Source: Hyphomicrobiales bacterium
GTDB taxonomy: Bacteria; Pseudomonadota; Alphaproteobacteria; Rhizobiales; Hyphomicrobiaceae
DNA: 51,559 nt
Direction: 5' to 3'
Assembly: GCA_003963125.1 (NCBI GenBank)
Contig: RXJK01000038.1
Coordinates: 1-51,559, forward strand
Below the pieces are notes generated by a model. That model did not search any database, was not told where the DNA came from, and worked only from the letters and a program-made list of their open reading frames with translations. Both the position numbers and the translations under genes were made by a program. Shown here in pieces: positions 6,425 to 49,822 of the stretch (positions are counted from its first letter, which is position 1; each line of letters opens with the position of its first letter).

Positions 6425-7636
6425 TCACCCCGCTGTTGCAGCCGCAAGTCCGCGGTCGATATCGGCCAATAGGTCGCTTGCCGCTTCGAGGCCGACGGAC
6501 AGCCGCAGCATGCCGTCGGTGATCCCGAGCCCGAGACGATCCTCCGGCTTGAGGCGCTGGTGGGTCGTGGTCGCGGGGTGGGTTATGAGGCTCTTGGCGT
6601 CCCCGAGATTGTTGGAAATTTTGATGAGTTTCAGAGCATTGAGGAAGCGGAATGCAGCCGGCTTGCCGCCCTCGATCACGAACGTCACCATCTGCCCCGG
6701 TCCCAGCATCTGCTGCTTCGCCAGAGCCTTCTGCGGGAAATTGGGAAGTTCCGCATAGAGCACCTTCGCGACCCCGGCCCGGCCCGCAAGATGGGAAGCG
6801 ACCTTGGACGCGCTGTCGCACTGCGCGCGCACGCGCAGGGGAAGCGTCTCTAGGCCTTTGAGCATCACCCAGGCATTGAACGGGCTCATGGCTGGGCCCG
6901 TCTGCCGCAGGAAATTGTGCAGATGGTCCTTGAGGTACTTCTCCGATCCGAGCACCACGCCGCCGAGGCACCGTCCCTGGCCGTCGATATGCTTCGTCGC
7001 CGAGTACATGACGACGTCGGCGCCGTGCTCCAGAGGCTTCTGCAGGATCGGCGTGGCGAACACGTTGTCGACGAACACGAGCGCGCCGGCGTCGTGCGCG
7101 ATTTTTGAAACAGCCGCGATATCGACGAGATCGAGCGTGGGATTGGCCGGCGTCTCGAAGAAGAACGCCTTCGTATTGGGCTTGACGGCGTTGGCCCACG
7201 CCTCCGTCTCACGGCCGTCGACCAGCGTGTAGCTGATCCCGAAGCGGGGACAGAGATCCTGCACCACGTAGAGACACGACCCGAACATCGCCCGCGCCGC
7301 GACGATGTGATCGCCAGCTTTCAGGTAGGAGAGGAGCGCTGCCGTGATGGCGGCCATGCCCGTTGCCGTCGCACGCGCGGCTTCCGCGCCTTCCAGGAGC
7401 CGCATCCGCTCCTCGAACATCGCGACCGTTGGGTTCGAGAAGCGGGAGTAGATGAAGCCCGGATCCTCGTCCTTGAAGCGCGCCTCCGCCTGCTCCGCCG
7501 TCTGGTAGACGAACGACTGGGTGAGGAACATCGCCTCCGAGATTTCACCGAACTGCGAACGCAGGGTTCCCCCGTGCACCAGCAGCGTTTCGGGCGACCA
7601 AGTCGGATCGGGTTGCGGAGGTTTGATATCTGCCAT
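6425..7636 (-). CDS. metZ: O-succinylhomoserine sulfhydrylase (Cys/Met-metabolism PLP enzyme)
   Basis: The ORF carries the PLP-lysine motif YSATKHIDGQG and the SRFSNPT motif. The ATG at 7636 (MADIK) is preceded by GGGAG 7 nt upstream. A SAM-II riboswitch lies in the leader. Confidence 0.9.
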   Translation of the reverse strand: MADIKPPQPDPTWSPETLLVHGGTLRSQFGEISEAMFLTQSFVYQTAEQAEARFKDEDPGFIYSRFSNPTVAMFEERMRLLEGAEAARATATGMAAITAALLSYLKAGDHIVAARAMFGSCLYVVQDLCPRFGISYTLVDGRETEAWANAVKPNTKAFFFETPANPTLDLVDIAAVSKIAHDAGALVFVDNVFATPILQKPLEHGADVVMYSATKHIDGQGRCLGGVVLGSEKYLKDHLHNFLRQTGPAMSPFNAWVMLKGLETLPLRVRAQCDSASKVASHLAGRAGVAKVLYAELPNFPQKALAKQQMLGPGQMVTFVIEGGKPAAFRFLNALKLIKISNNLGDAKSLITHPATTTHQRLKPEDRLGLGITDGMLRLSVGLEAASDLLADIDRGLAAATAG

Positions 7637-7674
7637 TTTTTCGCTCCCGCCCGAGCCCTTCATGATCCTCGGGC

Positions 7675-7795
7675 ATAAAAAATCCGACCTGTGGACCCGG
7701 ACTAGAGCCGGGCGCGACGGTCGGATACGAGCGCTCGGCCTTTTAGCGACTTATTTAACGTGGCTGCAAGCCGGCCGGCCAAATCACCACGGACA
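7675..7795 (-). promoter_or_regulatory. SAM-II (metA-type) riboswitch aptamer plus intrinsic-terminator expression platform in the metZ leader
   Basis: The minus-strand RNA from about 7795 to 7738 reads GUGAUUUGGCCGGCCGGCUUGCAGCCACGUUAAAUAAGUCGCUAAAAGG. This contains the SAM-II signature blocks GAUUU / GGCUUG / UUAAA / GCUAAAAG. Downstream there is an 8-bp stem AUCCGACC...GGUCGGAU (7684..7724) followed by UUUUUU (7675..7683). Confidence 0.7.
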
Positions 7796-7889
7796 TCGGC
7801 GTGGATTACATTGGCGCCGGGCTTGGCGTCAATAGGTTATTGCCGTACTTGGAAACGCAGCATCAAGTGCATCGCAAGAGGGAAGAACT

Positions 7890-25569: not shown

Positions 25570-25691
25570 GATCTTAGGCTGGCGCTTCGCGTTCCGGACG
25601 GTCCTGGTGGCAAGGCGCCGATCCGACCTTGTTCTGGCAGCCTGCCGCACCTACTCTACCCGTCTCATCCCATTTGAAAGCGTGGCCAAAC

Positions 25692-27107
25692 TTGTCGCCG
25701 ATCACCTACATCTCGACGCGCGGAGAGGCGCCCGAACTCGGGTTCGAGGACGCGCTGCTGGCGGGGCTCGCCCGTGACGGCGGCCTCTACCTGCCGAAGA
25801 CGTGGCCGACCCTGTCCAAGAGCGAACTCGAAGCGGTCCCGGGTCAGTCCTTTGCCGAGGTCGCGGCTGATACCGTCGCCCGGTTTGCCGGACCTAAAGG
25901 CCTTGCGCGCAAGGAGATCCTGAAGCTCGCAGAGGCGGCCTATGCCCGCTTCGGTCATCCGGCGACGACGCCACTCGTCGAGATCGATCGCAATCTCTGG
26001 GTGCTCGAGCTCTTCCATGGGCCGACACTCGCCTTCAAGGACGTGGCCATGCAGTTGCTGGCCCGCCTGATGGACGAGGTGCTGACCCGCCGCGGAGAGC
26101 GTGCGACCATCGTCGGCGCGACGTCGGGCGACACAGGCGGCGCGGCCATCGAGGCCTTCCGGGGCTCGTCCCGCGTCGACTGCATCATCCTCTTTCCCGA
26201 CGGTCGCGTGTCAGACGTCCAGCGCCGCATGATGACGACGGCGCGTGAGAGCAACGTGCACGCCGTCGCCGTCGACGGCACGTTCGACGACTGCCAGGCC
26301 CTCGTGAAGGCGATGTTCAACGACCTCGCCTTCCGCGACCGCGTGTGCCTCGCCGGCGTCAACTCGATCAATTGGGCCCGCATCGTCGCCCAGATCAGCT
26401 ACTACCTCGTCGCGGCGACGGCCTTGGGCGCGCCGTATCGGCCTGTGTCGTTCGCCGTGCCGACGGGCAATTTCGGCGACATCTTCGCAGGCTTCGTCGC
26501 GCGCACGATGGGGCTTCCGGTCGAAACGCTCGCCATCGCCACCAACGACAACGATATCCTGCGCCGCGCGCATGCCGACGGCGCCTACGAGGTGAAAGGC
26601 GTTTCGGCGACCAACTCGCCGTCGATGGACATCCAGATCTCCTCGAACTTCGAGCGCTATCTCTATGAGGCCTCGGATCGCGACGCGACGTGGGTGCGCG
26701 GACGAATGGGCGAGTTGCAGCAATCCGGCCAGTTCCGGCTGGGCGAGAAGGTGCAGGCGCGCATGCAGCGGGATTTTGCCGCTGCCAGTGCGAGCCAGGC
26801 GGAAGTGGCGGCAACCGTGCGCCGGGTGCGCGAGCAGAGTGGCTATCTCCTCGACCCGCACACCGCCTGTGGCGTCGTCGCAGCTGAAAAGACGCTTCCC
26901 GCCGGTCGAACACCGCGCGTCGTCCTCGCGACGGCCCATCCAGCAAAATTCCCGGACGCCGTGGAAGCCATCGTCGGCGAGCGCCCGCCGCTGCCGCCGC
27001 GACTGCACGCGCTGCTGACGGACAAGGAAAGGATTTCGGTATTGCCCAACGATCTCGCCGCCGTGAAGGGCTTCGTCGCCGACCGCGCGACCGCCGTGCG
27101 AGGCTGA
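25692..27107 (+). CDS. thrC: threonine synthase
   Basis: ORF 25629..27107. The N-terminus YISTRGEAPELGFEDALLAGLARDGGLYLP and the PLP lysine motif HGPTLAFKD are present. The start is not resolved: in-frame TTGs occur at 25629, 25674 and 25692, and I chose the last from the usual ThrC N-terminal length. Confidence 0.88.
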   Translation: MSPITYISTRGEAPELGFEDALLAGLARDGGLYLPKTWPTLSKSELEAVPGQSFAEVAADTVARFAGPKGLARKEILKLAEAAYARFGHPATTPLVEIDRNLWVLELFHGPTLAFKDVAMQLLARLMDEVLTRRGERATIVGATSGDTGGAAIEAFRGSSRVDCIILFPDGRVSDVQRRMMTTARESNVHAVAVDGTFDDCQALVKAMFNDLAFRDRVCLAGVNSINWARIVAQISYYLVAATALGAPYRPVSFAVPTGNFGDIFAGFVARTMGLPVETLAIATNDNDILRRAHADGAYEVKGVSATNSPSMDIQISSNFERYLYEASDRDATWVRGRMGELQQSGQFRLGEKVQARMQRDFAAASASQAEVAATVRRVREQSGYLLDPHTACGVVAAEKTLPAGRTPRVVLATAHPAKFPDAVEAIVGERPPLPPRLHALLTDKERISVLPNDLAAVKGFVADRATAVRG

Positions 27108-27114
27108 CCCCGAC

Positions 27115-28386
27115 ATGAGCGACAGCCTCACCAACATCTCGACCCTGAACAACGGCCTCAGGATCGCGACGCACCACATGCCGCACGTCGAAACCGTGTC
27201 GCTGGGCATCTGGGTGCACGCGGGCGCACGGCACGAAACGGCATCGCAACACGGCATCTCGCACCTCCTGGAGCACATGGCCTTCAAGGGTACCAACCGG
27301 CGCACGGCGATGGGGATCGCGGAGGAGATCGAAGCCGTCGGCGGCGAGCTGAATGCGGCGACCAGCCTCGAGACCACGGCCTACTACGCCCGCATCCTGA
27401 AGGACGACGTGCCGCTCGCCCTCGATATCCTGGCCGACATCCTGCAGGCCCCGCTCTACGCGCAGGACGAACTCGAGCGCGAACGCGAGGTCATCCTGCA
27501 GGAGATCGCGGGTACCCGCGACAGCCCCGAGGAGATCGCCTACGAACTCGTGCAGGAAGCCGCGTTCCCCTCGCAATCGATCGGCCGTCCGATCCTCGGC
27601 ACCGCGGAGAGCGTCAAGAGCTTCACGGCCGACGACCTGCGCAGTTTCCTGAAGCAGCATTACACGGGCGGCCGCATGGTGCTGTCCGCCGCGGGCAACC
27701 TCAGCCACGACGCGATCGTGCGCCAGTCCCAGGCGCTGTTCGGCAGCCTGTCGGCCGGCGCCGACGGCGGCTACGAGCCCGCACGCTACGTCGGTGGCCC
27801 GCGCATGTCGGACAAGGTGTTCGAGCAGAGCCATCTGGTGATGGGTTTCTCTGGCCCCTCCTACCGCACGACCGATTATTACACGGGCCAGGTGTTCTCC
27901 GGTTTGTTCGGCGGCGGCATGTCCTCGCGCCTGTTCCAGGAGGTGCGCGAGAAGCGCGGGCTCTGTTACGCGATCTATTCAAGCATGTGGGCGCTGGCCG
28001 ACGCCGGCCTCTTCGGCATTCACGCCGCTACCGGCCACGACGCGCTGGGTGAACTGATCGGCGTCGTCAACGAGGAGTTCGCCAAGGCCGCCGCCTCGCG
28101 CCCCTCCGAGGCGGAAGTCGCCCGCTCGAAGGCGCAGATCAAGGCCGGCCTGCTGATGGGGCTGGAAAGCTCTGGCGCCCGCGCGGAGCAGATGGCACGT
28201 CAGTTGCTTCTGTTTGGGCGTCTCGTCGACACGCCGGAATTGGTCGAGCGGATCGAGGCGGTGGACGCCGAAGCTGTGCGTAGTTTCGCGGAGAAGCTCG
28301 TTGCGGGGATGGCGTCGGTCGCCGTGGTTGGCACGGGAGAGAGCAGTGGGGCCTATGCCGCCCAAGCCGCCCAGAAGGCCGCCTGA
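27115..28386 (+). CDS. M16-family (pitrilysin-type) zinc peptidase
   Basis: 423-aa protein with the inverted zinc motif HLLEHMAFKGT and a downstream E (REVILQEI). Confidence 0.88.
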   Translation: MSDSLTNISTLNNGLRIATHHMPHVETVSLGIWVHAGARHETASQHGISHLLEHMAFKGTNRRTAMGIAEEIEAVGGELNAATSLETTAYYARILKDDVPLALDILADILQAPLYAQDELEREREVILQEIAGTRDSPEEIAYELVQEAAFPSQSIGRPILGTAESVKSFTADDLRSFLKQHYTGGRMVLSAAGNLSHDAIVRQSQALFGSLSAGADGGYEPARYVGGPRMSDKVFEQSHLVMGFSGPSYRTTDYYTGQVFSGLFGGGMSSRLFQEVREKRGLCYAIYSSMWALADAGLFGIHAATGHDALGELIGVVNEEFAKAAASRPSEAEVARSKAQIKAGLLMGLESSGARAEQMARQLLLFGRLVDTPELVERIEAVDAEAVRSFAEKLVAGMASVAVVGTGESSGAYAAQAAQKAA

Positions 28387-37458: not shown

Positions 37459-40116
37459 TTAGCGGCGGGATGAAAGTCGTTTTATCGCGTCGACGAGCGG
37501 GCGCTCGGCGGCATCGTAACCGGCCCACGGATCGGAACGACCGAGCAGCTTCGCAGCCGTGCGCACCGTGAAACGCTTGGGGTCGAGGTCTGCGCGAACC
37601 TTGCTCCACGCCAGCGGCATCGACACCGTCGCGCCAGGCCGTGCGCGCGGTGACAGCACACCGACGGCCGTGGCCGTCCGATCGTTGCGCAGGTAGTCGA
37701 GGTAGATGCGCCCCTCGCGCTGCTTCTTGGCCATGTTGATGAGATAGCGGTCTGGCGCGTCCGCTGCCATCGCCGCGCACACCGCCTGGGCGAACATCTT
37801 CGCCTCGTCCCAACCGATCTTGTCCTTGGCACGCACCTCGATTGGCGTGACGACGTGCAACCCCTTGCCGCCCGTAGTCTTGCAGAAGCTTGCGAGCCCG
37901 ATCGCCGAAAGCCGCTCGCGCATTTCGCGTGCCGCTTCGACGACGCGCTTGAACTGCACATCCTCCGCCGGATCGAGATCGAACACGAGACGGCCCGGGA
38001 CTTCCGGCTCGCCTGGCGCGCAGTTCCAGGGATGGAATTCGACGGCTGCGATCTGCGCCATGGCGACGAGCGCCTCGACGCTGTCGATCTGGATGTAGGC
38101 CTTCTTCTCGCCCGCGACCTTCACGCGCGTCACGAGGTTCGACATACCGAGCGCCACATGTCGCTGGAACCAGCGCTCGCCCTCGATGCCGTCCGGGGCT
38201 CGGATGAGCGAGCACGGCCGCCCCTTCAGGTACGCGACGAGCGGCTCACCCACCTCCTCGAGGTAGGCGGCGAGATCCAGTTTCGTCACGGCCGGCTCAC
38301 TGCCGGACGCTGGCCAAAGCTCCTTCTCGGGCTTCGAAATCGTGGTGCCGGCGACGGACGATCCGTTCTGTTTGGAGTGTTGCGGCATGGCAGCGGGCGC
38401 GCTCGCTTTCACCGAAACGAGACCGGCCTTCGGCGGTGCGACGGGCCGCTCGGCCTGGACCTCGCGTGCCGGCTTGTCGAGGCGCAGGCCCTTGAAGGCA
38501 GCTTGGCGCACCATCCCACCGCCCGTCCAGCCCGCGAATTCGATCTCGCATACCAGGTTTGGCCGCACCCAGTTGGTATCGGCGGTCTTGCGCGGGGCTT
38601 CCTTGCCCGTGAACGGGCTCGACGACGTCGCATTCGCCTTCAACTGGCGCAGGATGTCCTGCGTGTTCGAGCCGTTGAAGCCGGTGCCCACCCGCCCGAC
38701 GTGCATGAGCTTGTCGCCGTCGTACACGCCGACGATGAGCGAACGCAGCGTGCGCGCGCTGCCACTCCAGCCCCCGATGACGACCTCGTGGCCGAGACGG
38801 CACTTGGTTTTGACCCAGTTGTCGTTGCGGCCCGAACGATAGGGACCGTCCGCCTTTTTGGAAACGATGCCTTCGAGCTTCAGGCGCGCAGCGGACTCGA
38901 GAACCGCCTCTCCAGGCTGCGCAAGATGCTCGAGGTAGCGGATGCTCGTCTCGGATTTGCGGCCCGCTTTTTCGAGGAGCGCCTGCAAGCGCTGCTTGCG
39001 TTCGATGAGCGGCAATCCTCGCAAATCCTGGCCGTCCGCGAACAGCAGATCGAACGCGAAGAAGACGAGTTCCTTCGATTGACCTTCGGAGAGTGCGACC
39101 TGCAGCGCGGCGAAGTTCGGCGCGCCCTCGTGGTCGAGCGCCACCACCTCGCCATCGATCAGGCCGTCGGGAAGATGCTGCGCAGCCCGCGCGATGGCCG
39201 CGAACTTCTCCGTCCAATCGAGCCCTTTCCGCGTCCGCAGCACGGCGCGGCCGTTCTCCACGCGCAGTTGCACGCGGTAGCCGTCGAGCTTGATCTCGTG
39301 GACCCAGTCGCTCCCGGCCGGCGGCCGCGCGCTGGTGGCACAAAGCTGCGGGGACACGAAGCCTGGCATGGCGACCTTCGCCCCGCGCGTCGCGGAGGTG
39401 GATTTCGCAAGTTTCGCCCGCGGTGACTTTGCGGCGGTCGCGGCCGGCGCCGCCTTCGGCCGCGAATTCCATACGGCATCGGGTTCGAAAGCTCTCGCGC
39501 CGCCCATGATGAACGGTTTCGGCGCGCGGCCCTTGCCCGCGGCGATCTGAGCCATGCTGCGACCCGAAGCGACCGATCGATCGTCCTCGGCAGCGGAAGG
39601 ATCGGCGCCCGCGTGGTCGTCGCCGTGCTTGATCAGCAGCCAGTTGGTCCGCTTGCCGCCAAACTTGTCGCCGCGCATGCGCACGAGCACCCAGCTGCCC
39701 TTGAGCTTGGAGCCCGCAAGCGTGAACTTCAGTTCGCCCTTCTTCAGAGCCTGCGCCGCCTTGCCCGTCCCTTCCGGCAGCCAGAAGCCCCGGTCCCAAA
39801 GCATCACGGTGCCGCCGCCGTATTCGCCCTTGGGGATCGTACCTTCGAAATCGCCGTAGGCGAGGGGGTGATCCTCGACTTCGACTGCCAACCGCTTTTC
39901 ATGCGGATCGAGCGACGGTCCCTTGGTCACGGCCCAGGACTTGAAAACGCCGTCGACCTCGAGCCGCAGATCGTAGTGCAGGCGCGTCGCATCGTGCTTC
40001 TGGATTACGAAGCGCGGATACTCGCCGGGCTGCGGCCCCTGATCACCCTTGGGTTCCGCGGTCTTGGTGAAGTCGCGCTTGGCGCGGTAGAGGGAAAGGC
40101 TTTTCTTGACCGTCAT
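37459..40116 (-). CDS. ligD: ATP-dependent DNA ligase LigD (phosphoesterase-ligase-polymerase)
   Basis: 885-aa protein. It has an N-terminal 3'-phosphoesterase domain ([18 protein letters not shown]), a central ligase domain with the adenylation lysine motif EIKLDGYR, and a C-terminal LigD polymerase/primase domain ([11 protein letters not shown]). Confidence 0.92.
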
Positions 40117-42174: not shown

Positions 42175-43620
42175 TCACACGGGCGCGATACCGCGGCCGG
42201 CCATCGCACGTTGCGGGTTCGATTGATTCAATTTTCGCAAGGCCTGCTCGATCAACTCGGACGGGGGCCACCCGCGCGGATCGTCGTCGTCGCGCAGCCC
42301 CTCGAGCGCCCGCAGGAACGAGCGGCACCATGTGCCGACGTCACTCCGCCGCACCCGCGCCATCAGGGCCCGATGCCGCGCGATCCGCTCCTCCAACCCC
42401 ATCTCGAGCGCATCGCGCATGACGTCCGCCACGGCGTCGATGCTGTAGGGGTTGACGATCATGGCCTCTTCCAGCTCTTCCGCCGCCCCGGCGAAGCGGG
42501 AGAGGACGAGCACGCCGGGGTCGGCGGGATCCTGCGCGGCGACGAATTCCTTGGCGACGAGGTTCATGCCGTCCCTGAGCGGCGTCACCATGCCGATCCG
42601 CGACGACCGGTAGAGGTCCGCGAGCCGGCGCCGCGGGGCAGATCGGTGGATGTAGTGGATCGGCACCCAGTCGATCTCGCCGTAGCGGCCGTTGATGGAC
42701 CCCGCGAGGCTCTCGAGCTGCTGGCGGATGTCGGTATAGGCCCCGACGTTCTCGCGCGTAGGCGGCGCGATCTGCGTCAGCACCACCTGCCGCCGGTATC
42801 GCGGATACTTCTCGAGGAAGGTGCCGAACGCCTTGAACTTCTGCGGCAGGCCCTTGGTATAGTCGAGCCGGTCGACGCCGATCATGCGCAGCACGCCACG
42901 CCCCTGCACGACGGGGCTCTTGCGCTTGGCGTGCGCGAAGTCCTCGACGTCGATGCCGATAGGGAAGCTCGCAACGCGCACGAGGCGGTCGAAAAGCCGG
43001 ATGCGCCCGTCGGGCACTACGCGGCCGAACACGCCATTGGTCATGTAGTCGATGAGATTGGAAACGTCCGCCTTGGTCTGCAGCCCGACGAGGTCGTAGG
43101 CGGCAAGACCATGCGCGAGCTTCTCGTGCTCGGGGATCGCCATGAACGTCTGCCACGGCGGGAAGGGGATGTGCAGGTAGAAACCGACGGAATTCTTGAC
43201 ACCCAGCTTGCGCAGTTCAGTGGCGAACGGGATCAGGTGGTAGTCGTGCACCCAGATGATGTCATCGGGCTTGAGCATAGGCGCCAACAGCGACGCCAGC
43301 CGCTTGTTCACGTTCTCATACTGCTCGTAGTACCCCGCTTCGAACTCGGCGAGGTCCAGGCGATTGTGAAACACCGGCCACAGCACCGAGTTGGAGTAAC
43401 CAAGATAATACTGCTCGTGCTCGCTCTCGGTCAGCGCGACGGTCGCGATCTTTCCTTCGATATGCGGCGTCGTCGCGTCGTCGCGCACGTCCCCGCTCCA
43501 GCCGAACCAGAGCGCCGGCCGCGTGCGTACGATATCGGCAAGCGCAACGGCAACGCCGCCGGCCTGCGCAGCCTGCTTCGGATCGAGCACACGGTTGGAA
43601 ACGAGTACGATGCGGCTCAT
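42175..43620 (-). CDS. otsA: alpha,alpha-trehalose-phosphate synthase (UDP-forming)
   Basis: 481-aa GT20 protein ([38 protein letters not shown]). Confidence 0.92.
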
Positions 43621-43669: not shown

Positions 43670-43694
43670 AACGTGTCGCAGCGTCCAAGGTTCC
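43670..43694 (-). promoter_or_regulatory. EcfG/SigT-type general-stress-response promoter upstream of otsA
   Basis: The minus strand reads GGAAC-CTTGGACGCTGCGACA-CGTT, a perfect GGAAC-N16-CGTT. It lies in the 99-nt GH15-otsA spacer, about 50 nt upstream of the otsA ATG. Confidence 0.65.
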
Positions 43695-43719
43695 AATCGG
43701 ATACAGCGCGCCCAAGGGC

Positions 43720-45546
43720 TTACTCGGGCGACCACGCCTCCTGCCAGCTGCGCGAGATGATGCGCGCACTGTTGATGATGCCGGCCATGGTGTAGGTCTG
43801 CGGAATGTTGCCCCACAGCTCGCCTGTCGTCGGGTGAATGTCCTCCGAGAGCAGCCCGAACGAATTTCGCCGCGCGAGGAGATCGGCGAGAAGATCGCGC
43901 GCCTCGTTGCGCCGGCCGATTTCGGACAAGGCATCCATGTACCAGAACTGGCAGACGAGGAACGCCGTCTCCGGCGCGCCGAAATCATCCTCGGCCGTGT
44001 AGCGCATGATGAAGCCGTTACGGTTGAGTTCCCTGCCGATCACATCGCACGTCTTGATGAAGCGCGGATCGCGCGCGTTCATGAGGCCGAGCTCCGGCAG
44101 CAGCAGCACGCTCGCATCGAGTTCCGACCCGCCGAGTGTACCCGCGATGCAGCCGAGCTTGTCGTTCCAGGCCTCCTCGAGGATGCGCTTGCGCAAGCGC
44201 TCCGAGTGATCCCGCCAGAAGGCTGCGCGATCGGCCAAGCCAAGCTTCGCCGCGATCCTCCAGAGCCGGTCGCACGCCACCCAGCACATCGTGGCGGAAT
44301 GCGTGTGCACGCTTTGCCGGCCGCGATATTCCCACAAGCCCGCATCCGGCTCGAAGGCGAAGCGGACGGCTTGCATCCCGAGCGGCTCGAGAAGGCGGAA
44401 CAGCGCCGCGTCGCCCATCACGGGCAGGCGCTCGTCGATGAACATCTGGGCCGCGCCGAGAATGACGCTGCCATAGGCGTCGTGCTGAAGTTGCTCGGCA
44501 GCCTGATTGCCGATGCGTACGGGCCCGTGCCCACGAAAGCCCGCGAGCTTCGACGCGATGTACTCTTCCGTGTCGTCGCCCGGAACGATGCTGTAGACGG
44601 GCTTCAACGGCCGGTCGGTTTCGATGGCGATGTTCGTGATGTAGTGGATGTAGTCTTCCATCGTCTGCGTCGCGCCGAGCCGGTTCAGCGCCTTGATCAC
44701 GAAGAACGCGTCCCGCAACCAGCAGAAGCGATAATCCCAATTCCGCGAAGTGCCGGGCGCCTCCGGGATCGACGTCGTATGCGCGGCGATGATCGCGCCC
44801 GTCTCCTCGTAGTTGCACAGCTTAAGCGAGATCGCCGCGCGGATGACGTCCGCCTGAAATTCCAGCGGCACGGCCAGCGACCGCACCCAGTTCATCCAGT
44901 AGTCCCGCGTGCGCTGGATGAACTCCTGCGTCACGGTGCTGACGGAGGCTTCGAACGGCTCGTCCGGCCCGATCACGAGATGCACGGGCCGGATCAGCGC
45001 GAACGGCGTTTCCTGCACGATGTAGCTGAGCGCCGCGTCGGTCGTGACGCGGAGCGCTTCAGCGCCGCCAGCGTAGCGGATATGGTTCGAACCCGCGACG
45101 CGGCTGGTGAAAGGTTCGCCGTAATTGAAAGTCGGCCGGATGCGAATGCGGACCCGCGGCACGCCCGACACGTGCTCGATCCGCCGATAGAGCTGCGGCG
45201 GGTTGAAGACGCGCTCGAAGCGGGCGAAGCGCGGCGCGAAGTCGATAATGCGGACGCTGCTGCCGTCCTGGGCCGTGAGAACCGTCTCCAGCACTGCGGT
45301 ATTCCGCATGTAGCTCGACTGCGCCGACACCTGGTTTTCGAGCACGACGTCGGCAAAGCCCTTCTCCTCGTCGCCGGCGATGAGCCTGGAGAAGACAGGA
45401 TCGGAGTCGAACCTGGGGAAGCACCACCAGGAAATGCGCGCATTCCGGTCGACGAGGGCTGCGATGCGGCAATTGCCGATGACGGCGTATTCGAGGCCCC
45501 GCTCAGGGCCTTTGTCCGCGCTCGCGCGGTCCGTCTTTGCGGCCAT
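43720..45546 (-). CDS. glycoside hydrolase family 15 protein (glucoamylase/trehalase-like)
   Basis: The internal ATG at 45546 is preceded by GGGAGG and gives a 608-aa protein. It is GH15-like throughout (AHTTSIPE...[23 protein letters not shown]). Confidence 0.88.
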
Positions 45547-45649
45547 GATATCCCCTCCCGCTTGCCGGCTGTGCCAAGGCTGTCTTACCGAACGCGCGAA
45601 ACCGCTCGCCGGTTTCCGGCCGCGAAGGCTCAACGCCTCCGCCACGACT

Positions 45650-45674
45650 GGAACCACGCCGTGGCGACGGCGTT
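45650..45674 (+). promoter_or_regulatory. EcfG/SigT-type general-stress-response promoter upstream of the DUF1328 ORF
   Basis: GGAAC-CACGCCGTGGCGACGG-CGTT is a perfect GGAAC-N16-CGTT, 32 nt upstream of the ATG at 45706. Confidence 0.65.
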
Positions 45675-45705
45675 GACGTTGCAGTCAAGAGCGAAGCGGA
45701 GACGG

Positions 45706-45882
45706 ATGATGGGCAATCTTTTGCACTACGCGATCGTATTTCTCGTGATCGCACTGATCGCAGCGGCCATCGGGTTCGGCGGCGTGGCGGGCGTCGCGAT
45801 GGAAGGCGCCAGGATCCTGTTCTGGGTCTTTATCGTGCTGTTCGTGGTGTCGCTGATCGCCAACTTCGTGCGGCGGGCCTGA
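45706..45882 (+). CDS. DUF1328 (UPF0391) small membrane protein
   Basis: 58-aa ORF forming the tail of the spurious long ORF 43834..45882. It translates to [58 protein letters not shown], with two TM helices and the family-typical GFGG. GGAGACGG lies upstream. Confidence 0.75.
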
Positions 45883-45888
45883 GGGAGG

Positions 45889-45914
45889 GAGAGGCGCGCT
45901 CCGGCGCGCCTCTC
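45889..45914. terminator. perfect 11-bp GC-rich hairpin between convergent genes (candidate bidirectional terminator)
   Basis: GAGAGGCGCGC (45889..45899), loop TCCG, GCGCGCCTCTC (45904..45914). There is no strong U-tract on either side. Confidence 0.5.
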
Positions 45915-45930
45915 GCTTCTCGATTGCGGA

Positions 45931-46233
45931 CTAGCGACGATGGTGGCCTCCGCCTCCGGCGTGCCGATAGCCGCCGCGCCAGCCGCCGCGTCCACCGCCC
46001 CACCCGTCATAGAAGCCGATACTCGCGTAGATGCCGGGTCCATACCCATAGCCGTAATCATCGTCGTCGCCGTAATAGCTCGAATAGCCGTAGTAACCGA
46101 CGGGGCCGTAGCTGTAGCTCGAACGATAGCCACGGCGGCCGTAGTCGCCATCCCAATCATCGCAGGCAAACGCCGCGGAAGACGCCGTCAGAACGGCGAC
46201 TGCCGCGAGTGAAAGTGTCCATAGTTTACGCAT
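45931..46233 (-). CDS. secreted Gly/Tyr/Asp-rich 100-aa protein
   Basis: Internal ATG at 46233. The signal peptide is MRKLWTLSLAAVAVLTASSAAFA. The mature part is about 75 aa of GY-rich low complexity (YGRRGYRSSYSYGPVGYYGYSSYYGDDDDYGYGYGPG...GGGRGGWRGGYRHAGGGGHHRR). Confidence 0.6.
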   Translation of the reverse strand: MRKLWTLSLAAVAVLTASSAAFACDDWDGDYGRRGYRSSYSYGPVGYYGYSSYYGDDDDYGYGYGPGIYASIGFYDGWGGGRGGWRGGYRHAGGGGHHRR

Positions 46234-46284
46234 CGCGTTTTGTGCTCCGGTTTCTTGCTGCCCCGCCTGGACCGAGATCCGGAA

Positions 46285-46309
46285 AACCACCCCCACACCA
46301 TGCAGTTCC
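46285..46309 (-). promoter_or_regulatory. near-consensus EcfG-type promoter upstream of the Gly/Tyr-rich ORF
   Basis: The minus strand reads GGAAC-TGCATGGTGTGGGGGT-GGTT, one mismatch in the -10 (G for C). It is 52 nt upstream of the ATG at 46233. Confidence 0.4.
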
Positions 46310-46359
46310 GACCTTCGGCTGCTCCGGTCCGTCCCACTTCGCACACAGTCAGAAACTGG

Positions 46360-46384
46360 CGAACCGGCGCATCGGCTCTGCGTT
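46360..46384 (+). promoter_or_regulatory. near-consensus EcfG-type promoter upstream of the 91-aa ORF
   Basis: CGAAC-CGGCGCATCGGCTCTG-CGTT has one mismatch at the first -35 base. It is 36 nt upstream of the ATG at 46420. Confidence 0.4.
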
Positions 46385-46419
46385 ATGGCAGCCACCGAAA
46401 AACAGGATGCGAGGGACAC

Positions 46420-46695
46420 ATGCAGACCGATCTCGAGTCGTGGCTGGCCGCGGAAGAGAGCGCGGGGAAGGGCGATCTGCGCTCGGCGAACGTCATGCGC
46501 ATGTGTGCGCTGGCGAGCGTGCTGGCGGCGGCTGAAAGCGCGATCCTTGTCGGCGATGCGATCCAGGCCAAGCGCAAGCTCGAGAAGCTCAAGCGCTATA
46601 CGGCCATGACGCTCGCGCGCCTGACGGATACCGGCGGCAGTGCGCCGGCCGCGGTGGGAGAGGATCAAACGATCACCACGCCGACGGGAGCTTGA
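46420..46695 (+). CDS. hypothetical 91-aa protein
   Basis: Internal ATG with GAGGGA 5 nt upstream. It translates to MQTDLESWLAAEESAGKGDLRSANVMRMCALASVLAAAESAILVGDAIQAKRKLEKLKRY..., which is predicted helical with no recognisable domain. Confidence 0.4.
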   Translation: MQTDLESWLAAEESAGKGDLRSANVMRMCALASVLAAAESAILVGDAIQAKRKLEKLKRYTAMTLARLTDTGGSAPAAVGEDQTITTPTGA

Positions 46696-46882
46696 CCGGG
46701 CGCGAGCACTACTCGCCGGTATGTTGTTACCGCATTCCGCCACTCGAACGTTTGCACACTCACAGCACGTAAAACATAAGGAGAGCAATTCGCTGGCTGC
46801 ATGTCTTTCTTAAATGACGTAGAGCAGATCCGTGCGCTATCGTTCTCGTGATGCCGGGTAACGATGGCCGGGCGCTCTGACC

Positions 46883-47302
46883 ATGAGGAAGCCCATGCAC
46901 GCCCGTGTCACGCCGTTCGGTGAAGTGCGCGTCCTCCTTGTCGAGGACGAGCCCCTGATCCTCCTCGATTGCGAGGCGATCCTGGCGTCCCTCGGCGTCG
47001 GCCACGTGCAAAGCGCGACGAGCGTGCCGGAGGCAAAAGCGCTGCTTGACGCGGGGCACACCTTCGACGTGGCGATCCTCGATATCTCCCTCGGCGGCAC
47101 GTCGAGCTTCGAACTCGCGGGCGAGCTCGGCAATCTGCAGGTCCCTGCGGGTTTCATGAGCGGCTATAGCTCCCAGGACATCCCGGAGGCGTTCCGCGGC
47201 CGACCCTACATCAACAAGCCGTTCGCCCAGGGGCAGCTCAAGTCGCTCCTCGAGAGTCTCATCCAGGACCGCATGCGGGAAGCGAAGAGCGGCGCTGTCT
47301 GA
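46883..47302 (+). CDS. single-domain response regulator (receiver only)
   Basis: 139-aa protein with the acidic pocket VEDE, the phospho-acceptor in VAILDISL, S in FMSGY and K in INKPF. There is no output domain. The exact start is uncertain (ATG 46883 or 46895). Confidence 0.8.
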   Translation: MRKPMHARVTPFGEVRVLLVEDEPLILLDCEAILASLGVGHVQSATSVPEAKALLDAGHTFDVAILDISLGGTSSFELAGELGNLQVPAGFMSGYSSQDIPEAFRGRPYINKPFAQGQLKSLLESLIQDRMREAKSGAV

Positions 47303-47409
47303 CGTCGCTCCAGCCGGACCTGGCTAGAGCGCCCCTTTCGGCCCACCGGACTGGCGCCGGAGCGGCCGGAGATCCCTTGCGGCGCCGATGTCCTGAAGCG
47401 TACCTCCCG

Positions 47410-47434
47410 GGAACCATGACCTCCACGCTCCGTT
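47410..47434 (+). promoter_or_regulatory. EcfG/SigT-type general-stress-response promoter upstream of the DUF1236 ORF
   Basis: GGAAC-CATGACCTCCACGCTC-CGTT is a perfect GGAAC-N16-CGTT, 25 nt upstream of the ATG at 47459. Confidence 0.65.
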
Positions 47435-47458
47435 GGCTAGGCGGAGACGACCACAAAC

Positions 47459-48544
47459 ATGGAGAGTATCATGAGTACCCATAAGTTGCTCGCTGGCGTC
47501 GCACTCGCCGCCCTCCTCAGCACCGCCCCCGCGATCGCCCAGGAAATGAAGAAGGGCGATACGCCATCTGGCGGCGCCGGCATGGGCGCCGGTCAGAGCG
47601 GTCCTTCCGCCCAGCCTCAGCGCAACGAGACCTCACCCTCCCATACGCCTGGCGCAGCCGGTAACCACGGCACGACCACCCCTAATACCAACAAGGGTCA
47701 GGCTCAGCGCCAGGAAGAACCCGGCAAGTCCACCACCCGCGGCGCCAGCGACCACACGCAGAAGGGCACCGAAAAGGGTCACACGTCGAAGAATAACGCC
47801 GAGAACAAGGCTCAGCCCGGCCAGGATCACAACAAGGCCGCAGAGCGTCCGACCCAGGACCACAACAAGAATGCGCAGACGAAGGGCAACGACACAGACC
47901 GCAATGCGGCCACCAATCGCAGCACGCAGGACCGCAAGGACGTTCAGCAGGACAAGTCCGCCACCAATCAGAACGGCGCGCGCGGCAACGTCCAGCTCTC
48001 CGAGCAGCAGCGCACGGATCTGCATCGCGACATCCTGAAGGAGCGCAACGTCAACCGGACGAACGTGAAGGTCGACATCCGCGTCGGCGCCCGCGTTCCG
48101 CGCAACATCCACCTCGCCGTCCTGCCGGCGGCCGTCATTTCCGTCGTCCCGGCCTATCGCAGCTACCGCTACTTCGTCGAGGGTGACGAGATCTGCATCG
48201 TCAATCCGACGACGTACGAAGTTGTCGACGTCATCACCAGCCGCAGCACCGTCGCGCAGGGTCCCAGCAATCACAACGCCGGCCTGACGCTGACCGAGCA
48301 GGAACGCATGATCGTTCTGCGCGAAGTCGACCTCGGCGCCAGCAACAGCACGATGGGCCTGGGTGCCGTCACCGAAGGCGCGAGCGTGCCCCGCAGCGTC
48401 GAGTTGCTGAACATGCCCGTGACGGTGATCGACCGCATTCCGAAGCTGCAGGGCTACAAGTACTTCGTGGCCGAGCAGCGGGTCGCCATCGTCGATCCCA
48501 ACGGCAGCCGGGTCGATCTCGTCATCGACGCGCACGACAAATAG
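47459..48544 (+). CDS. secreted DUF1236-repeat protein with a long hydrophilic low-complexity region
   Basis: It has a signal peptide (LLAGVALAALLSTAPAIA), then about 150 aa rich in Q/N/K/T/D/G, then two DUF1236-like modules (VPAYRSYRYFVEGDEICIVNPTTYEVVDVI and IPKLQGYKYFVAEQRVAIVDPNGSRVDLVI). The start is ATG 47459 or 47471. Confidence 0.8.
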   Translation: MESIMSTHKLLAGVALAALLSTAPAIAQEMKKGDTPSGGAGMGAGQSGPSAQPQRNETSPSHTPGAAGNHGTTTPNTNKGQAQRQEEPGKSTTRGASDHTQKGTEKGHTSKNNAENKAQPGQDHNKAAERPTQDHNKNAQTKGNDTDRNAATNRSTQDRKDVQQDKSATNQNGARGNVQLSEQQRTDLHRDILKERNVNRTNVKVDIRVGARVPRNIHLAVLPAAVISVVPAYRSYRYFVEGDEICIVNPTTYEVVDVITSRSTVAQGPSNHNAGLTLTEQERMIVLREVDLGASNSTMGLGAVTEGASVPRSVELLNMPVTVIDRIPKLQGYKYFVAEQRVAIVDPNGSRVDLVIDAHDK

Positions 48545-48570
48545 CTTCAGCCGAGCTGGACAGAAGCGAT

Positions 48571-48598
48571 GCGCCGGGTTCGCCCGGCGCATTTTTTG
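48571..48598 (+). terminator. intrinsic terminator after the DUF1236 gene
   Basis: GCGCCGGG, loop TTCG, CCCGGCGC, followed by ATTTTTTG. Confidence 0.85.
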
Positions 48599-48667
48599 TG
48601 GCGAACGCCCCATTTCGGTCCGAAACCCCTGGTGCCGTGCCCATGAGCACAGCGCGGAGGGGACGCA

Positions 48668-49255
48668 TTGCGCCTGAGGAACATCATCGCCGTCGTCACG
48701 TGCGTCGGTACCGCGCTGGTATCCACCGCCGCCACGGCCACCACGCCCGTCGACGTACACGACAACGGCACTTTCTTCGAGGCTGCGGGGCGTAAGGTTT
48801 CCTGCGGCCGCAACATCCGCACGATCCTCGATCCGCAGCTTCCCAACCTCGGGATCGCGACGCGCAATCTCCTCGTGATGAACCCACGCCTCCTGCAGCG
48901 ACAGCCGGAGAACGTGCGGCTGTTCGTCTTCCATCATGAGTGCGGGCATCACCACGTCGGCGGCGACGAGTTGGGGGCCGATTGCTGGGCCGTGCGGCAG
49001 GGCGTCGCTTCGGGCTGGCTGCACGCACCGGATCTGAAGGACATCTGCCGCTCGTTCGGCAATACGCCGGAGACGCCGACCCATCCCGCCTCAGCCCGCC
49101 GCTGCCAGGCCTTGGCCACCTGCTTCGCCCGCGCGGAAAAATCGCTCCGTCCCGCCCCTCAACAGTCGGTGGCCCTGTTGAGACCGCCAGCCCTCGTACG
49201 CGAAGGCTATCTGGCGAGTGCGGAGGACGTTCGTGCAAGCCAGCGACTGCGCTGA
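48668..49255 (+). CDS. secreted hypothetical protein with an HExxH motif (putative minimal zinc peptidase)
   Basis: TTG start. It has a signal-like N-terminus (MRLRNIIAVVTCVGTALVSTAATA) and the motif FVFHHECGHHHVGGDELGADCWAV, i.e. HExxH followed by E..AD as in small M48/MA-clan-like proteins. I cannot name a family. Confidence 0.5.
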   Translation: MRLRNIIAVVTCVGTALVSTAATATTPVDVHDNGTFFEAAGRKVSCGRNIRTILDPQLPNLGIATRNLLVMNPRLLQRQPENVRLFVFHHECGHHHVGGDELGADCWAVRQGVASGWLHAPDLKDICRSFGNTPETPTHPASARRCQALATCFARAEKSLRPAPQQSVALLRPPALVREGYLASAEDVRASQRLR

Positions 49256-49328
49256 CACGCCGGTCTCCGCCAGCGAATTGCCAAAGTATGCGCGTTGCAA
49301 ATGTCAGCGCAATGCTTTGCGTGCTGGC

Positions 49329-49353
49329 GGAACCGGCCCCCCATGTCGACGTT
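49329..49353 (+). promoter_or_regulatory. EcfG/SigT-type general-stress-response promoter driving a short non-coding transcript
   Basis: GGAAC-CGGCCCCCCATGTCGA-CGTT is a perfect GGAAC-N16-CGTT. It lies in the 228-nt spacer between the HExxH ORF and the iron-permease-family ORF. Confidence 0.6.
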
Positions 49354-49359
49354 GATAAG

Positions 49360-49466
49360 GCAAGTGATGCCGATCGGACAGGATCGGCGAATTCAGTGAT
49401 GAGAGCTGGTTCCCTCCCTCTCCACTGAGGAGCGGTGCGCCCCCCTCGCACCGCTCCTTTTTATTT
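49360..49466 (+). ncRNA. candidate EcfG-dependent small RNA (about 105 nt), or a terminator-containing leader
   Basis: It is bounded by the promoter at 49329..49353 and the terminator at 49429..49466. It contains a perfect 7-bp hairpin (GCCGATC-GGACAG-GATCGGC, 49369..49388) and a single-stranded CU-rich tract UUCCCUCCCUCUCC (49410..49424). No ORF longer than 10 codons is present. Confidence 0.5.
49429..49466 (+). terminator. strong intrinsic terminator
   Basis: GGAGCGGTGCG (49429..49439), loop CCCCCCT, CGCACCGCTCC (49447..49457), then TTTTTATTT. Confidence 0.85.
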
Positions 49467-49483
49467 GCAGGGACGCGAGCGGG

Positions 49484-49822
49484 ATGGATCCGGGACGGGC
49501 AACAACAGCACGGCGCGCGCTTACCCAGCTTGGGACAATGGCGGCGCACCCCATCGCATTCCTATCGGTCGTGCTCTACGGCGTCTCGTGGGCGATCTTC
49601 TCGCCCGAGACGCTCGAATGGCACGGGCTTGCGACGCTCGTGACCTGGTTTATCGCACTTTTGATCCAGCGCGCCGAGCACCGCGATACGCAAGCCCTTC
49701 ACGCCAAGCTCGACGAGCTCTTGCACGCCCAGTCCGCGGCACGGAATTCCCTGACGCACATCGACGAGGCGGAGCCGGAAGAGATCGAAGCCCACCGCAA
49801 GGCCGAGGGCCGGCGCGGCTAG
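49484..49822 (+). CDS. low-affinity iron permease family (PF04120-like) small membrane protein
   Basis: 112-aa protein. The hydrophobic segments (HPIAFLSVVLYGVSWAIF and LATLVTWFIALLIQ) followed by RAEHRDTQALHAKLDELL match the family pattern (...Q....D..A...KLDEL...). Confidence 0.65.
   Translation: MDPGRATTARRALTQLGTMAAHPIAFLSVVLYGVSWAIFSPETLEWHGLATLVTWFIALLIQRAEHRDTQALHAKLDELLHAQSAARNSLTHIDEAEPEEIEAHRKAEGRRG

What the first reader, a model, noticed from the sequence alone, without database searches (positions are those of the whole stretch)
49329..49466. Candidate stress-sigma-dependent small RNA with a CU-rich anti-Shine-Dalgarno tract
A perfect EcfG-type promoter (49329..49353) is followed about 75 nt later by a textbook intrinsic terminator: an 11-bp GC stem plus UUUUUAUUU at 49429..49466. 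The predicted transcript is about 105 nt and has no credible ORF.

It contains a perfect 7-bp hairpin (49369..49388). It also contains an unpaired UUCCCUCCCUCUCC tract (49410..49424) directly 5' of the terminator. C/U-rich seed regions that pair with Shine-Dalgarno or G-rich leaders are characteristic of alphaproteobacterial trans-acting sRNAs. Caulobacter is known to have a sigma-T-dependent sRNA (GsrN) that acts through a C-rich loop.

I see no obvious sequence identity to any sRNA I know, so this could be an undescribed GSR sRNA. The alternative is that it is a terminator-containing regulatory leader of the iron-permease-family gene, which starts 18 nt after the U-tract.
Basis: partly seen in the sequence, partly recalled or inferred. 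Interest (0 to 1): 0.65.

Follow-up and report, generated by a model that had tools for sequence, protein, structure and literature searches.

The report
Stress-promoter small RNA fused to permease gene
A stress-sigma (EcfG-type) promoter drives a conserved, structured non-coding RNA of about 108 nt that ends in a terminator just before a small membrane-protein gene; it is a real but untested new family within a kind of bacterial regulatory RNA that is already well known.

Summary
GGAAC-N16-CGTT lies at 49329-49353, a 7-bp hairpin at 49369-49388, a CU-rich tract at 49410-49423, and an 11-bp GC terminator with UUUUUAUUU at 49429-49466. The PF04120 "iron permease" ORF starts at 49484.

The same unit occurs in seven divergent lineages, relatives labelled Hyphomicrobiaceae, at a syntenic locus. 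In all of them:
- The -35 and -10 boxes are invariant and the spacers are unrelated.
- The first hairpin has changed sequence but still pairs (5 of 7 pairs with double changes).
- The 68-nt 3' block is almost invariant, although neighbouring proteins are only 52-78% identical.

No ORF is conserved and no Rfam family reaches threshold. The best match is suhB/MmgR at 24.6 bits against a cut-off of 41.

- Half of the "unpaired" CU tract is predicted to sit in a conserved second hairpin.
- The RNA is not independent of the permease gene. The ORF always starts 10-44 nt after the U tract with no promoter of its own. Twenty of 80 other permease homologues carry an EcfG motif directly upstream.

Best reading: one EcfG promoter yields a terminated anti-Shine-Dalgarno sRNA and, by read-through, the permease mRNA. 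Expression and trans action remain untested. It is a new member of a known kind.

The parts
49329..49353 (+). EcfG-type (ECF15) promoter: -35 GGAAC at 49329-49333, 16-nt spacer, -10 CGTT at 49350-49353
   Evidence: Sequence read and pattern scan. Both boxes are invariant in seven lineages, the spacers are unrelated, and the distance to the conserved RNA 5' block is fixed. A close strain has substitutions only in the spacer, at 49339, 49341 and 49343.
49359..49365 (+). Conserved 5' block GGCAAGU; predicted transcription start at about 49358-49361
   Evidence: In six of seven lineages it is GGCAAGU starting 6 nt after CGTT (AGCAAGU in L087); the GCAAGU core is invariant in all seven. Strain-level substitutions stop at 49357. 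The start site is inferred, not mapped.
49369..49388 (+). Stem-loop 1: 7-bp hairpin, variable in sequence
   Evidence: All 7 pairs vary among seven lineages and 5 show changes on both sides; 86% of cells are paired. L087 has GCCAACC/GGUUGGC and L094 has UUGCUGG/CCAGUAA.
49394..49427 (+). Stem-loop 2: CAGUG (49394-49398)/CACUG (49423-49427), GAGAG (49401-49405)/CUCUC (49418-49422), GG (49408-49409)/CC (49416-49417), apical loop UUCCCU (49410-49415)
   Evidence: Minimum-free-energy and consensus folds. All 12 pairs are invariant in seven lineages. Only the bulge, one loop-side base and the apical loop of L094 vary.
49410..49423 (+). CU-rich anti-Shine-Dalgarno tract UUCCCUCCCUCUCC; CUCCCUCUCCACUG (49414-49427) is invariant
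   Evidence: It aligns to the GUUUcCUCCCU motif of Rfam suhB/MmgR in a sub-threshold match.
49429..49466 (+). Intrinsic terminator: 11-bp GC-rich stem, loop CCCCCCU, U tract UUUUUAUUU
   Evidence: The stem forms with probability about 1.0 and no conserved antiterminator was found. All 11 pairs are invariant in seven lineages. The U tract is degenerate in L003.
49484..49822 (+). Co-transcribed gene: 112-aa PF04120 'low affinity iron permease' family protein
   Evidence: Pfam E = 1.2e-13. The ORF starts 10-44 nt after the U tract in all seven lineages, and no sigma-70-like site was found in the window itself. Among 80 other homologues, 20 have a strict EcfG motif within 130 nt upstream.

Best explanation
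This is a dual-output general-stress locus. Under stress, sigma-EcfG RNA polymerase starts at about 49359. Most transcripts end at the intrinsic terminator (about 49464-49466), giving a roughly 108-nt small RNA with three hairpins. The invariant CU-rich sequence (CUCCCUCUCC, containing the anti-SD core) would pair with Shine-Dalgarno or G-rich leaders of target mRNAs, probably with Hfq bound at the terminator and U tail, as in other alphaproteobacterial anti-SD sRNAs. Transcripts that read through the terminator are the only source of mRNA for the permease-family gene 18 nt downstream, so the terminator also sets the sRNA-to-mRNA ratio.

Shown: the conserved promoter boxes, the covarying SL1, the invariant SL2 and terminator, the lack of coding potential, and the constant linkage to the ORF.

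Inferred: the transcription start and 3' end, EcfG dependence, read-through, Hfq involvement and action in trans.
For: **Promoter**
- Four EcfG motifs lie in 5.7 kb, before otsA, DUF1328, DUF1236 and this RNA.
- Both boxes are invariant and the spacers unrelated in seven lineages.

**RNA**
- The fold has z = -6.9.
- SL1 covaries: 5 of 7 pairs show double changes.
- 57 of 68 columns of SL2 plus terminator are invariant, against 3 of 33 in the SL1 region.
- Neighbouring proteins are only 52-78% identical.
- A close strain has 25 substitutions in 49150-49357, none in 49358-49468 and 9 in 49469-49785.
- A more distant strain shows about 4% divergence in the RNA against about 14% in the flanks.
- Mini-ORFs are broken by indels and lost start codons.

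**Terminator**
- It forms with probability about 1.0 and no conserved alternative pairing was found.

**Linkage to the permease gene**
- The ORF starts 10-44 nt after the U tract and has no promoter of its own.
- 20 of 80 other homologues have the EcfG motif directly upstream, against about 0.6 expected.

**Class precedent**
- EcfG-regulated sRNAs with C-rich loops are reported as prevalent (PMC5869019).
- CU-rich anti-SD motifs define AbcR, NfeR1 and MmgR (PMC7143759).
Against: - There is no expression evidence. RNA-run contigs are low-depth pieces that also cover DNA upstream of the promoter, so they probably derive from DNA, and raw metatranscriptome reads gave nothing.
- Every copy found is linked to the permease gene. 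However, six of the seven lineages were found by searching with the permease protein, so this count cannot show that unlinked copies are absent. Only a 20-mer scan of metagenome contigs was independent of the gene, and it gave one true match. An independent trans role is not demanded by the data.
- The apical loop of SL2 changes in L094, while the paired strands never do. This is unusual for a loop-seed sRNA.
- L003 has a poor U tract.
- A target scan of the 38 genes in the window was not better than shuffled seeds (p = 0.15).
Confidence: 0.55

Rival explanations
1. The element is a purely cis-acting leader. It is a structured 5' UTR whose terminator attenuates the permease gene and is overcome under some condition, for example by a protein that recognises the invariant hairpins. 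Any short RNA produced is a by-product.
For: - The RNA is always directly upstream of the permease ORF, which has no other promoter. No unlinked copy was found in 80 genome loci, in the one true metagenome hit or in plasmids.
- Both stems are invariant while the loops vary, which suggests sequence-specific recognition rather than structure alone.
- L003 keeps the hairpin although its U tract is degenerate.
Against: - No conserved antiterminator or anti-SD/SD pairing was found; the terminator forms with probability about 1.0, and the read-through fold leaves the SD region free.
- Most other lineages run the same gene family from an EcfG promoter with a short leader, so no special control is needed.
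- The CU-rich anti-SD motif next to a terminator is the hallmark of trans-acting alphaproteobacterial sRNAs.
Confidence: 0.25
2. It is a divergent member of the alpha-r8 family (SuhB/MmgR, Rfam RF00519) that has acquired an EcfG promoter.
For: It is the only Rfam family with a notable hit: 24.6 bits, E = 0.005 in a 401-nt search. GUUCCCUCCCU aligns to GUUUcCUCCCU just 5' of the terminator.
Against: - The score is far below the gathering cut-off of 41.
- No suhB match at E <= 5 appeared when ten whole loci, including the homologues L002 and L003, were scanned.
- The model's 5' hairpin region is largely missing from the alignment (5 nt against 13).
- MmgR is 77 nt with RpoD/RpoN-type control, and SuhB of Sphingopyxis is activated by a LysR regulator.
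- The review notes that AbcR also has 'partial homology to SuhB', so the motif is shared across families.
Confidence: 0.1
3. The invariant inverted repeats act at the DNA level. They would be operators for a DNA-binding regulator located downstream of the promoter, not RNA elements.
For: Both strands of two inverted repeats are invariant while the spacers and loops vary.
Against: - The second repeat is a textbook GC hairpin followed by a U tract.
- SL1 shows RNA-type compensatory change, including G-U pairs.
- The position, +35 to +100 inside a transcribed region, and the arm lengths of 11-12 bp are atypical for operators.
Confidence: 0.04
4. The promoter-like motif and a terminator lie together by chance in an ordinary intergenic region.
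For: Loose terminator-like sites are common: 2 were found against 1.1 expected in 2 kb.
Against: Seven-lineage conservation of the boxes, the spacing, the 5' block and the 68-nt 3' block, set among saturated flanks.
Confidence: 0.01

Closest known systems
GsrN and 'GsrN-like' sigma-EcfG-regulated sRNAs (Caulobacter; predicted in Rhizobiaceae, Brucella, Bradyrhizobiaceae; PMC5869019)
   Same: - It has a near-consensus EcfG promoter.
- It is about 100 nt long.
- It carries C-rich sequence in hairpin loops: the SL2 loop, and six Cs in the terminator loop.
- It sits among general-stress genes.
- The presumed role is a post-transcriptional arm of the general stress response.
   Different: - No sequence relationship was shown; that paper found BLASTn hits to GsrN only in Caulobacteraceae.
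- The C-rich element is not in a 5' loop.
- It is not next to a phyR-nepR-ecfG locus; none is present in the 51.5-kb window.
- It is fused to a downstream protein gene.
alpha-r8 family: SuhB/MmgR (Rfam RF00519)
   Same: It has a CU-rich motif (GUU[U/C]CCUCCCU) a few nt 5' of an intrinsic terminator, with a presumed Hfq-dependent anti-SD mode of action.
   Different: - The score is below the Rfam cut-off (24.6 against 41 bits).
- The RNA is longer (108 against 77 nt), with two upstream hairpins.
- It has an EcfG promoter instead of RpoD/RpoN-NtrC or LysR control.
- It has a different genomic context.
alpha-r14 (NfeR1) and alpha-r15 (AbcR1/2) anti-SD sRNAs of Rhizobiales
   Same: It has a three-hairpin architecture with CU-rich anti-SD motifs predicted to bind ribosome-binding sites (PMC7143759).
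   Different: - No Rfam match was found to these families.
- In alpha-r14 the stems are hypervariable and the loops conserved, whereas here the stems of SL2 and the terminator are invariant and the loop can vary.
- Those sRNAs have sigma-70 promoters.
sRNAs released from 5' leaders by premature termination, e.g. the trp attenuator sRNA rnTrpL of Sinorhizobium (named from my own knowledge; listed as RcsR1/rnTrpL in PMC7143759, Table 1)
   Same: One promoter yields a terminated small RNA and, by read-through, the downstream mRNA.
   Different: There is no leader peptide and no alternative antiterminator structure here, and the signal would be a sigma factor rather than tRNA charging.

Membership tests
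alpha-r8 / SuhB / MmgR (RF00519) | Reaches the Rfam gathering score of the covariance model | tested here: not met
   24.6 bits against a cut-off of 41. There was no hit at gathering threshold in the window, and no suhB hit at E <= 5 when ten whole loci, including the homologues L002 and L003, were scanned.
alpha-r8 / SuhB / MmgR (RF00519) | Conserved CU-rich motif immediately 5' of the terminator | tested here: met
   GUUCCCUCCCU aligns to the consensus GUUUcCUCCCU. Here, however, part of it is predicted to be paired.
alpha-r8 / SuhB / MmgR (RF00519) | RNA of about 77 nt with sigma-70/RpoN-NtrC or LysR-type control | tested here: not met
   The RNA is predicted at about 108 nt and has a conserved EcfG-type promoter. 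The family features are taken from PMC7143759 and bioRxiv 10.64898/2025.12.09.693200.
GsrN-like sigma-EcfG sRNAs (criteria of PMC5869019) | [quoted passage not shown] | tested here: met
   GGAAC-N16-CGTT is present and conserved in seven lineages.
GsrN-like sigma-EcfG sRNAs (criteria of PMC5869019) | Evidence of intergenic, GSR-dependent transcription | not testable with these tools
   Only low-depth contaminant contigs were found, and no reads in raw metatranscriptomes.
GsrN-like sigma-EcfG sRNAs (criteria of PMC5869019) | Proximity to the ecfG/sigT-nepR-phyR locus | tested here: not met
   Pfam scans of 45 ORFs across the window found no sigma-70 r2/r4 or PhyR-type protein; four of the 38 called genes (1682-2899, 2914-4272, 25629-27107, 27115-28386) were not scanned. 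A lone receiver-domain protein is at 46883-47302. The window ends 2 kb downstream, so only the upstream side is well covered.
GsrN-like sigma-EcfG sRNAs (criteria of PMC5869019) | [quoted passage not shown] | tested here: inconclusive
   C-rich loops exist, but in SL2 and in the terminator rather than in the 5' hairpin. The gsrN sequence was not at hand for a direct comparison.
Intrinsic-terminator riboswitch or attenuator leader | Conserved alternative (antiterminator) pairing that competes with the terminator | tested here: not met
   Truncated folds of six lineages show no shared pairing of the terminator's 5' arm, and the terminator probability is about 1.0.
Protein-coding gene or small peptide | Conserved reading frame and start codon | tested here: not met
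   The 9- and 10-codon ORFs of the window lose their ATG or frame in L002, L003, L085 and L094.

The most novel reading that the evidence does not exclude
The invariant SL2 and terminator hairpins form a sequence-specific decision module. A protein, or a second RNA, would recognise them and set whether the EcfG-driven transcript ends as a trans-acting anti-SD sRNA or continues into the permease mRNA. That would be a regulated sRNA/mRNA switch inside the general stress response. An analogous, non-homologous EcfG-like promoter + CCUCCCUCCC-loop hairpin + terminator unit lies upstream of a permease homologue in two Rhizobium-like genomes (L014, L015). This hints that such a pairing of sRNA and permease gene has arisen more than once.
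Probability: 0.15. Interest if true: 0.65.

Novelty: new member of a known kind. Interest (0 to 1): 0.42.

Why it matters
EcfG-driven small RNAs are thought to be widespread, but only GsrN of Caulobacter has been studied in depth.

This candidate gives a clean, conserved family of that kind in a poorly studied group (relatives labelled Hyphomicrobiaceae). Its promoter, ends and structure are defined well enough to be tested directly.

Its layout also offers a simple case of how an sRNA can be born in, or captured by, the leader of a stress gene. The sRNA sits between an EcfG promoter and a gene that other lineages express from that promoter directly.

The unusual pattern of invariant stems and variable loops suggests a constraint beyond folding.

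If the RNA turns out to be only a leader, the result is ordinary.

Tried and rejected
**Expression evidence**
- I laid contigs of 20 RNA or unclassified (possibly RNA) public runs on the region.
- The pieces are low depth (2-7x), have arbitrary ends and also cover DNA upstream of the promoter.
- They serve only as strain variants, not as transcripts.
- Raw reads of four 2026 metatranscriptomes gave no reads.

**Wider homologue search**
- A 20-mer of the core found one true and one chance match in metagenome contigs.
- blastn against plasmids found nothing.
- Covariance model R1 found no further copy in the window or in 76 other permease loci. It found none in L088-L093 or L095-L097 either.

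**Rfam**
- Nothing reached threshold.
- The Rhizobium look-alike also matched nothing.
- It is not related to the window RNA by the covariance model or by blastn.

**Target prediction**
- I scanned the CU tract against the 38 start regions in the window.
- The best duplex, -29.4 kcal/mol, was not better than shuffled seeds (p = 0.15).
- A genome-wide prediction is impossible from 51 kb.

**Readings considered and rejected**
- Antiterminator or riboswitch: no conserved alternative pairing.
- Small peptide: the start codon and frame are not conserved.
- Internal sigma-70 promoter for the permease gene: none was found in the window itself.
- Cis pairing of the CU tract with the permease SD: it does not appear in folds of the read-through RNA.

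**Literature link**
- A search for a link between the permease family and the general stress response found no paper.

Full report
**What is in the sequence**

- GGAAC (49329-49333), a 16-nt spacer and CGTT (49350-49353).
- A perfect 7-bp hairpin, GCCGAUC/GAUCGGC, at 49369-49388.
- UUCCCUCCCUCUCC at 49410-49423.
- An 11-bp GC-rich stem (49429-49439 / 49447-49457) with loop CCCCCCU, followed by UUUUUAUUU (49458-49466).
- The ATG of a 112-aa ORF at 49484.

The terminator scan reports the stem as 13 pairs. The ORF is a PF04120 "low affinity iron permease" family protein (E = 1.2e-13). The predicted RNA folds far better than shuffles (-55.6 kcal/mol, z = -6.9).

The fold puts the 3' two-thirds of the CU tract into a second hairpin, SL2 (49394-49427):
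- CAGUG pairs with CACUG.
- GAGAG pairs with CUCUC.
- Two weak G-C pairs close the top.
- Only UUCCCU remains in the apical loop.

**Setting**

The strict EcfG pattern GGAAC-N16/17-CGTT occurs four times in the window against 0.8 expected, and all four lie within 43670-49353.

The other three precede genes typical of the alphaproteobacterial general stress response:
- otsA (GT20);
- a DUF1328 protein;
- a DUF1236 protein.

An otsB-like phosphatase, a GH15 hydrolase and a lone receiver-domain protein lie close by.

The rest of the window is ordinary chromosome, including a cox operon, guaA, eutC, ligD and a SAM-alpha riboswitch. No sigma-factor or PhyR gene is in the window. The nearest relatives recovered are metagenome-assembled genomes labelled Hyphomicrobiaceae.

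**Conservation**

I searched public genomes and assemblies for relatives of the permease protein and read the DNA upstream. The same RNA unit is present in seven distinct lineages:
- the window;
- L083/L084;
- L085/L086;
- L087;
- L094;
- L002;
- L003.

A covariance model built from four of them scores the others at 105-128 bits.

The locus is syntenic: (response regulator)-DUF1236-(orf195)-RNA-permease-convergent GTPase. The neighbouring proteins are only 52-78% identical between the window and L002/L003, so these genomes are well diverged.

Against that background the pattern is sharp:
- The -35 and -10 boxes are invariant, while the 16-17-nt spacers share nothing.
- A block GGCAAGU (AGCAAGU in L087) begins 6 nt after CGTT in every lineage.
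- In the SL1 region only 3 of 33 alignment columns are invariant.
- In the 68 columns covering SL2 and the terminator, 57 are invariant.

Closer strains seen in sequencing runs show the same thing:
- One has 25 substitutions in 49150-49357, none in 49358-49468 and 9 in 49469-49785.
- Another keeps the RNA at about 96% identity, while the flanks are about 86% identical and the adjoining spacers cannot be aligned.

**Structure**

SL1 has changed sequence almost completely yet stays a hairpin. All 7 pairs vary, 5 with changes on both sides, and 86% of cells are paired. The observed number of cells with a change on both sides (7) was reached by only 1 of 500 shuffles, and the slid controls are far lower. 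This is direct support for an RNA-level structure.

SL2 (12 pairs) and the terminator (11 pairs) never vary in any lineage, so they give no covariation evidence. Every variable column in that block is unpaired: linkers, the bulge and the loops. In L094 this includes the apical loop of SL2, which reads GGUCAUCUCC instead of GGUUCCCUCC.

Invariant stems with variable loops are the reverse of the usual pattern for structural RNAs. It means the sequence of both strands is under selection. I cannot explain this fully.

**Not coding, not a switch**

The two mini-ORFs in the window copy (10 and 9 codons) lose their ATG or their frame in other lineages.

I folded each homologue up to the terminator loop. 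This showed no shared pairing of the terminator's 5' arm with upstream sequence. In full-length folds the terminator forms with probability about 1.0. Folds of the read-through RNA keep SL2 and leave the permease ribosome-binding region open.

A conventional riboswitch, attenuator or cis anti-SD mechanism is therefore not supported. A protein-dependent mechanism cannot be excluded.

**Relation to the permease gene**

In all seven lineages the ORF begins 10-44 nt after the U tract, which leaves no room for a promoter. None was detected in the window itself. The ORF is intact and conserved, so it must be transcribed, and the only visible promoter is the EcfG one upstream of the RNA.

Among 80 other permease homologues from across the Alphaproteobacteria, 20 have a strict EcfG motif within 130 nt upstream of the gene. 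About 0.6 would be expected from the motif's density in the same loci.

The gene family is thus a common direct EcfG target. In this clade the RNA sits between the promoter and the gene.

U-tract quality varies among lineages, from UUUUUAUUU in the window to UUCUCGUU in L003. This fits a leaky terminator.

**Known families**

No Rfam family reaches its threshold in the window except an unrelated SAM-alpha riboswitch.

The only notable sub-threshold hit is suhB/MmgR (RF00519). It scores 24.6 bits against a cut-off of 41, and it rests on the motif GUU(U/C)CCUCCCU plus a terminator. No such hit at E <= 5 appeared when ten whole loci, including the homologues L002 and L003, were scanned.

Published descriptions of that family differ from this RNA:
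- MmgR is a 77-nt RNA under RpoD/RpoN-type control (PMC7143759).
- SuhB of Sphingopyxis is activated by a LysR regulator, and its regulon is largely separate from the EcfG regulon (bioRxiv 10.64898/2025.12.09.693200).
- The same review notes that AbcR sRNAs also show "partial homology to SuhB". The motif is therefore a shared anti-SD signature, not proof of membership.

The concept itself is known. GsrN of Caulobacter is sigma-T dependent and acts through a C-rich loop. Its authors argue that EcfG-regulated sRNAs are prevalent in Alphaproteobacteria (PMC5869019). Several S. meliloti sRNAs have predicted RpoE2 promoters.

This RNA meets the promoter criterion of "GsrN-like" RNAs. It does not meet the criterion of proximity to the regulatory locus, and no sequence relationship is shown.

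**Expression**

I could not obtain evidence for or against a discrete transcript.

The organism appears as a low-level contaminant in many runs. The contigs from "RNA" runs are short, 2-7x deep, have arbitrary ends and include DNA upstream of the promoter. Runs that seemed to hold only the sRNA words do so because a related strain differs everywhere else. Raw metatranscriptome reads gave nothing.

**Verdict**

The element is a real, conserved, structured non-coding RNA behind a conserved EcfG-type promoter, in a family not yet described in Rfam.

The most likely mechanism is a stress-induced, terminated anti-SD sRNA of about 108 nt, together with read-through expression of the permease gene (confidence about 0.55). 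A purely cis-acting leader is the main rival (about 0.25).

It is a new member of a known kind. It is of moderate interest, mainly for two reasons: it is fused to an EcfG target gene, and its two 3' hairpins are unusually invariant in sequence.

Noticed in passing
L014:2793-2915 and L015:2784-2906: Two Rhizobium-like genomes carry an analogous unit about 95 nt upstream of their permease homologue. It consists of GGAAC-N16-(A/G)GTT, a first hairpin, a second hairpin with a CCUCCCUCCC loop, and a strong terminator. It is not detectably homologous to the window RNA by covariance model or blastn, and it has no Rfam match.
   Followed up: partly
window 43670-43694 (-), 45650-45674 (+), 47410-47434 (+): Three further strict EcfG-type motifs precede otsA (42175-43620, -), a DUF1328 protein (about 45733-45882, +) and a DUF1236 protein (47459-48544, +). 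An otsB-like phosphatase, a ROK kinase and a GH15 hydrolase lie next to otsA. Together they form a compact general-stress and trehalose island.
   Followed up: partly
window 7723-7800 (-): A SAM-alpha riboswitch (RF00521, 81 bits) lies upstream of a Cys/Met-metabolism PLP enzyme gene (6425-7663, -).
   Followed up: no
window 48668-49255 (+): A 195-aa ORF with no Pfam hit contains an HExxH-like stretch (HHECGHHH). It is conserved at 71-88% identity in L002, L083 and L084, but it is absent between DUF1236 and the RNA in L003 and L087.
   Followed up: partly
window 49429-49457 and homologues: The terminator stem is identical in all seven lineages, with no wobble pair or mismatch in 77 cells, and its loop is a run of 4-6 Cs. 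L003 keeps the hairpin although its U tract is degenerate (UUCUCGUU). This remains unexplained.
   Followed up: partly
window 48568-48593 (+); L087 about 138-170: A terminator-like hairpin after the DUF1236 gene (GATGCGCCGGG...CCCGGCGCAT followed by a T run) is recognisably conserved in L087.
   Followed up: no
L080:2758-3000 and L051:2739-2985: In some Bradyrhizobium and Acetobacteraceae loci the EcfG motif precedes a small ORF, lysine/arginine-rich in L080 and proline/alanine-rich in L051, that lies upstream of the permease homologue. This suggests a two-gene EcfG operon rather than an RNA.
   Followed up: no
window 37459-40116 (-): A full-length LigD (phosphoesterase, ligase and primase-polymerase domains) lies next to the stress island. 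No Ku gene was looked for.
   Followed up: no
L088 (P0007, 77% identical permease): This is a permease as similar as those that carry the RNA, but in a different context. It has neither the RNA nor an EcfG motif within 330 nt upstream.
   Followed up: partly
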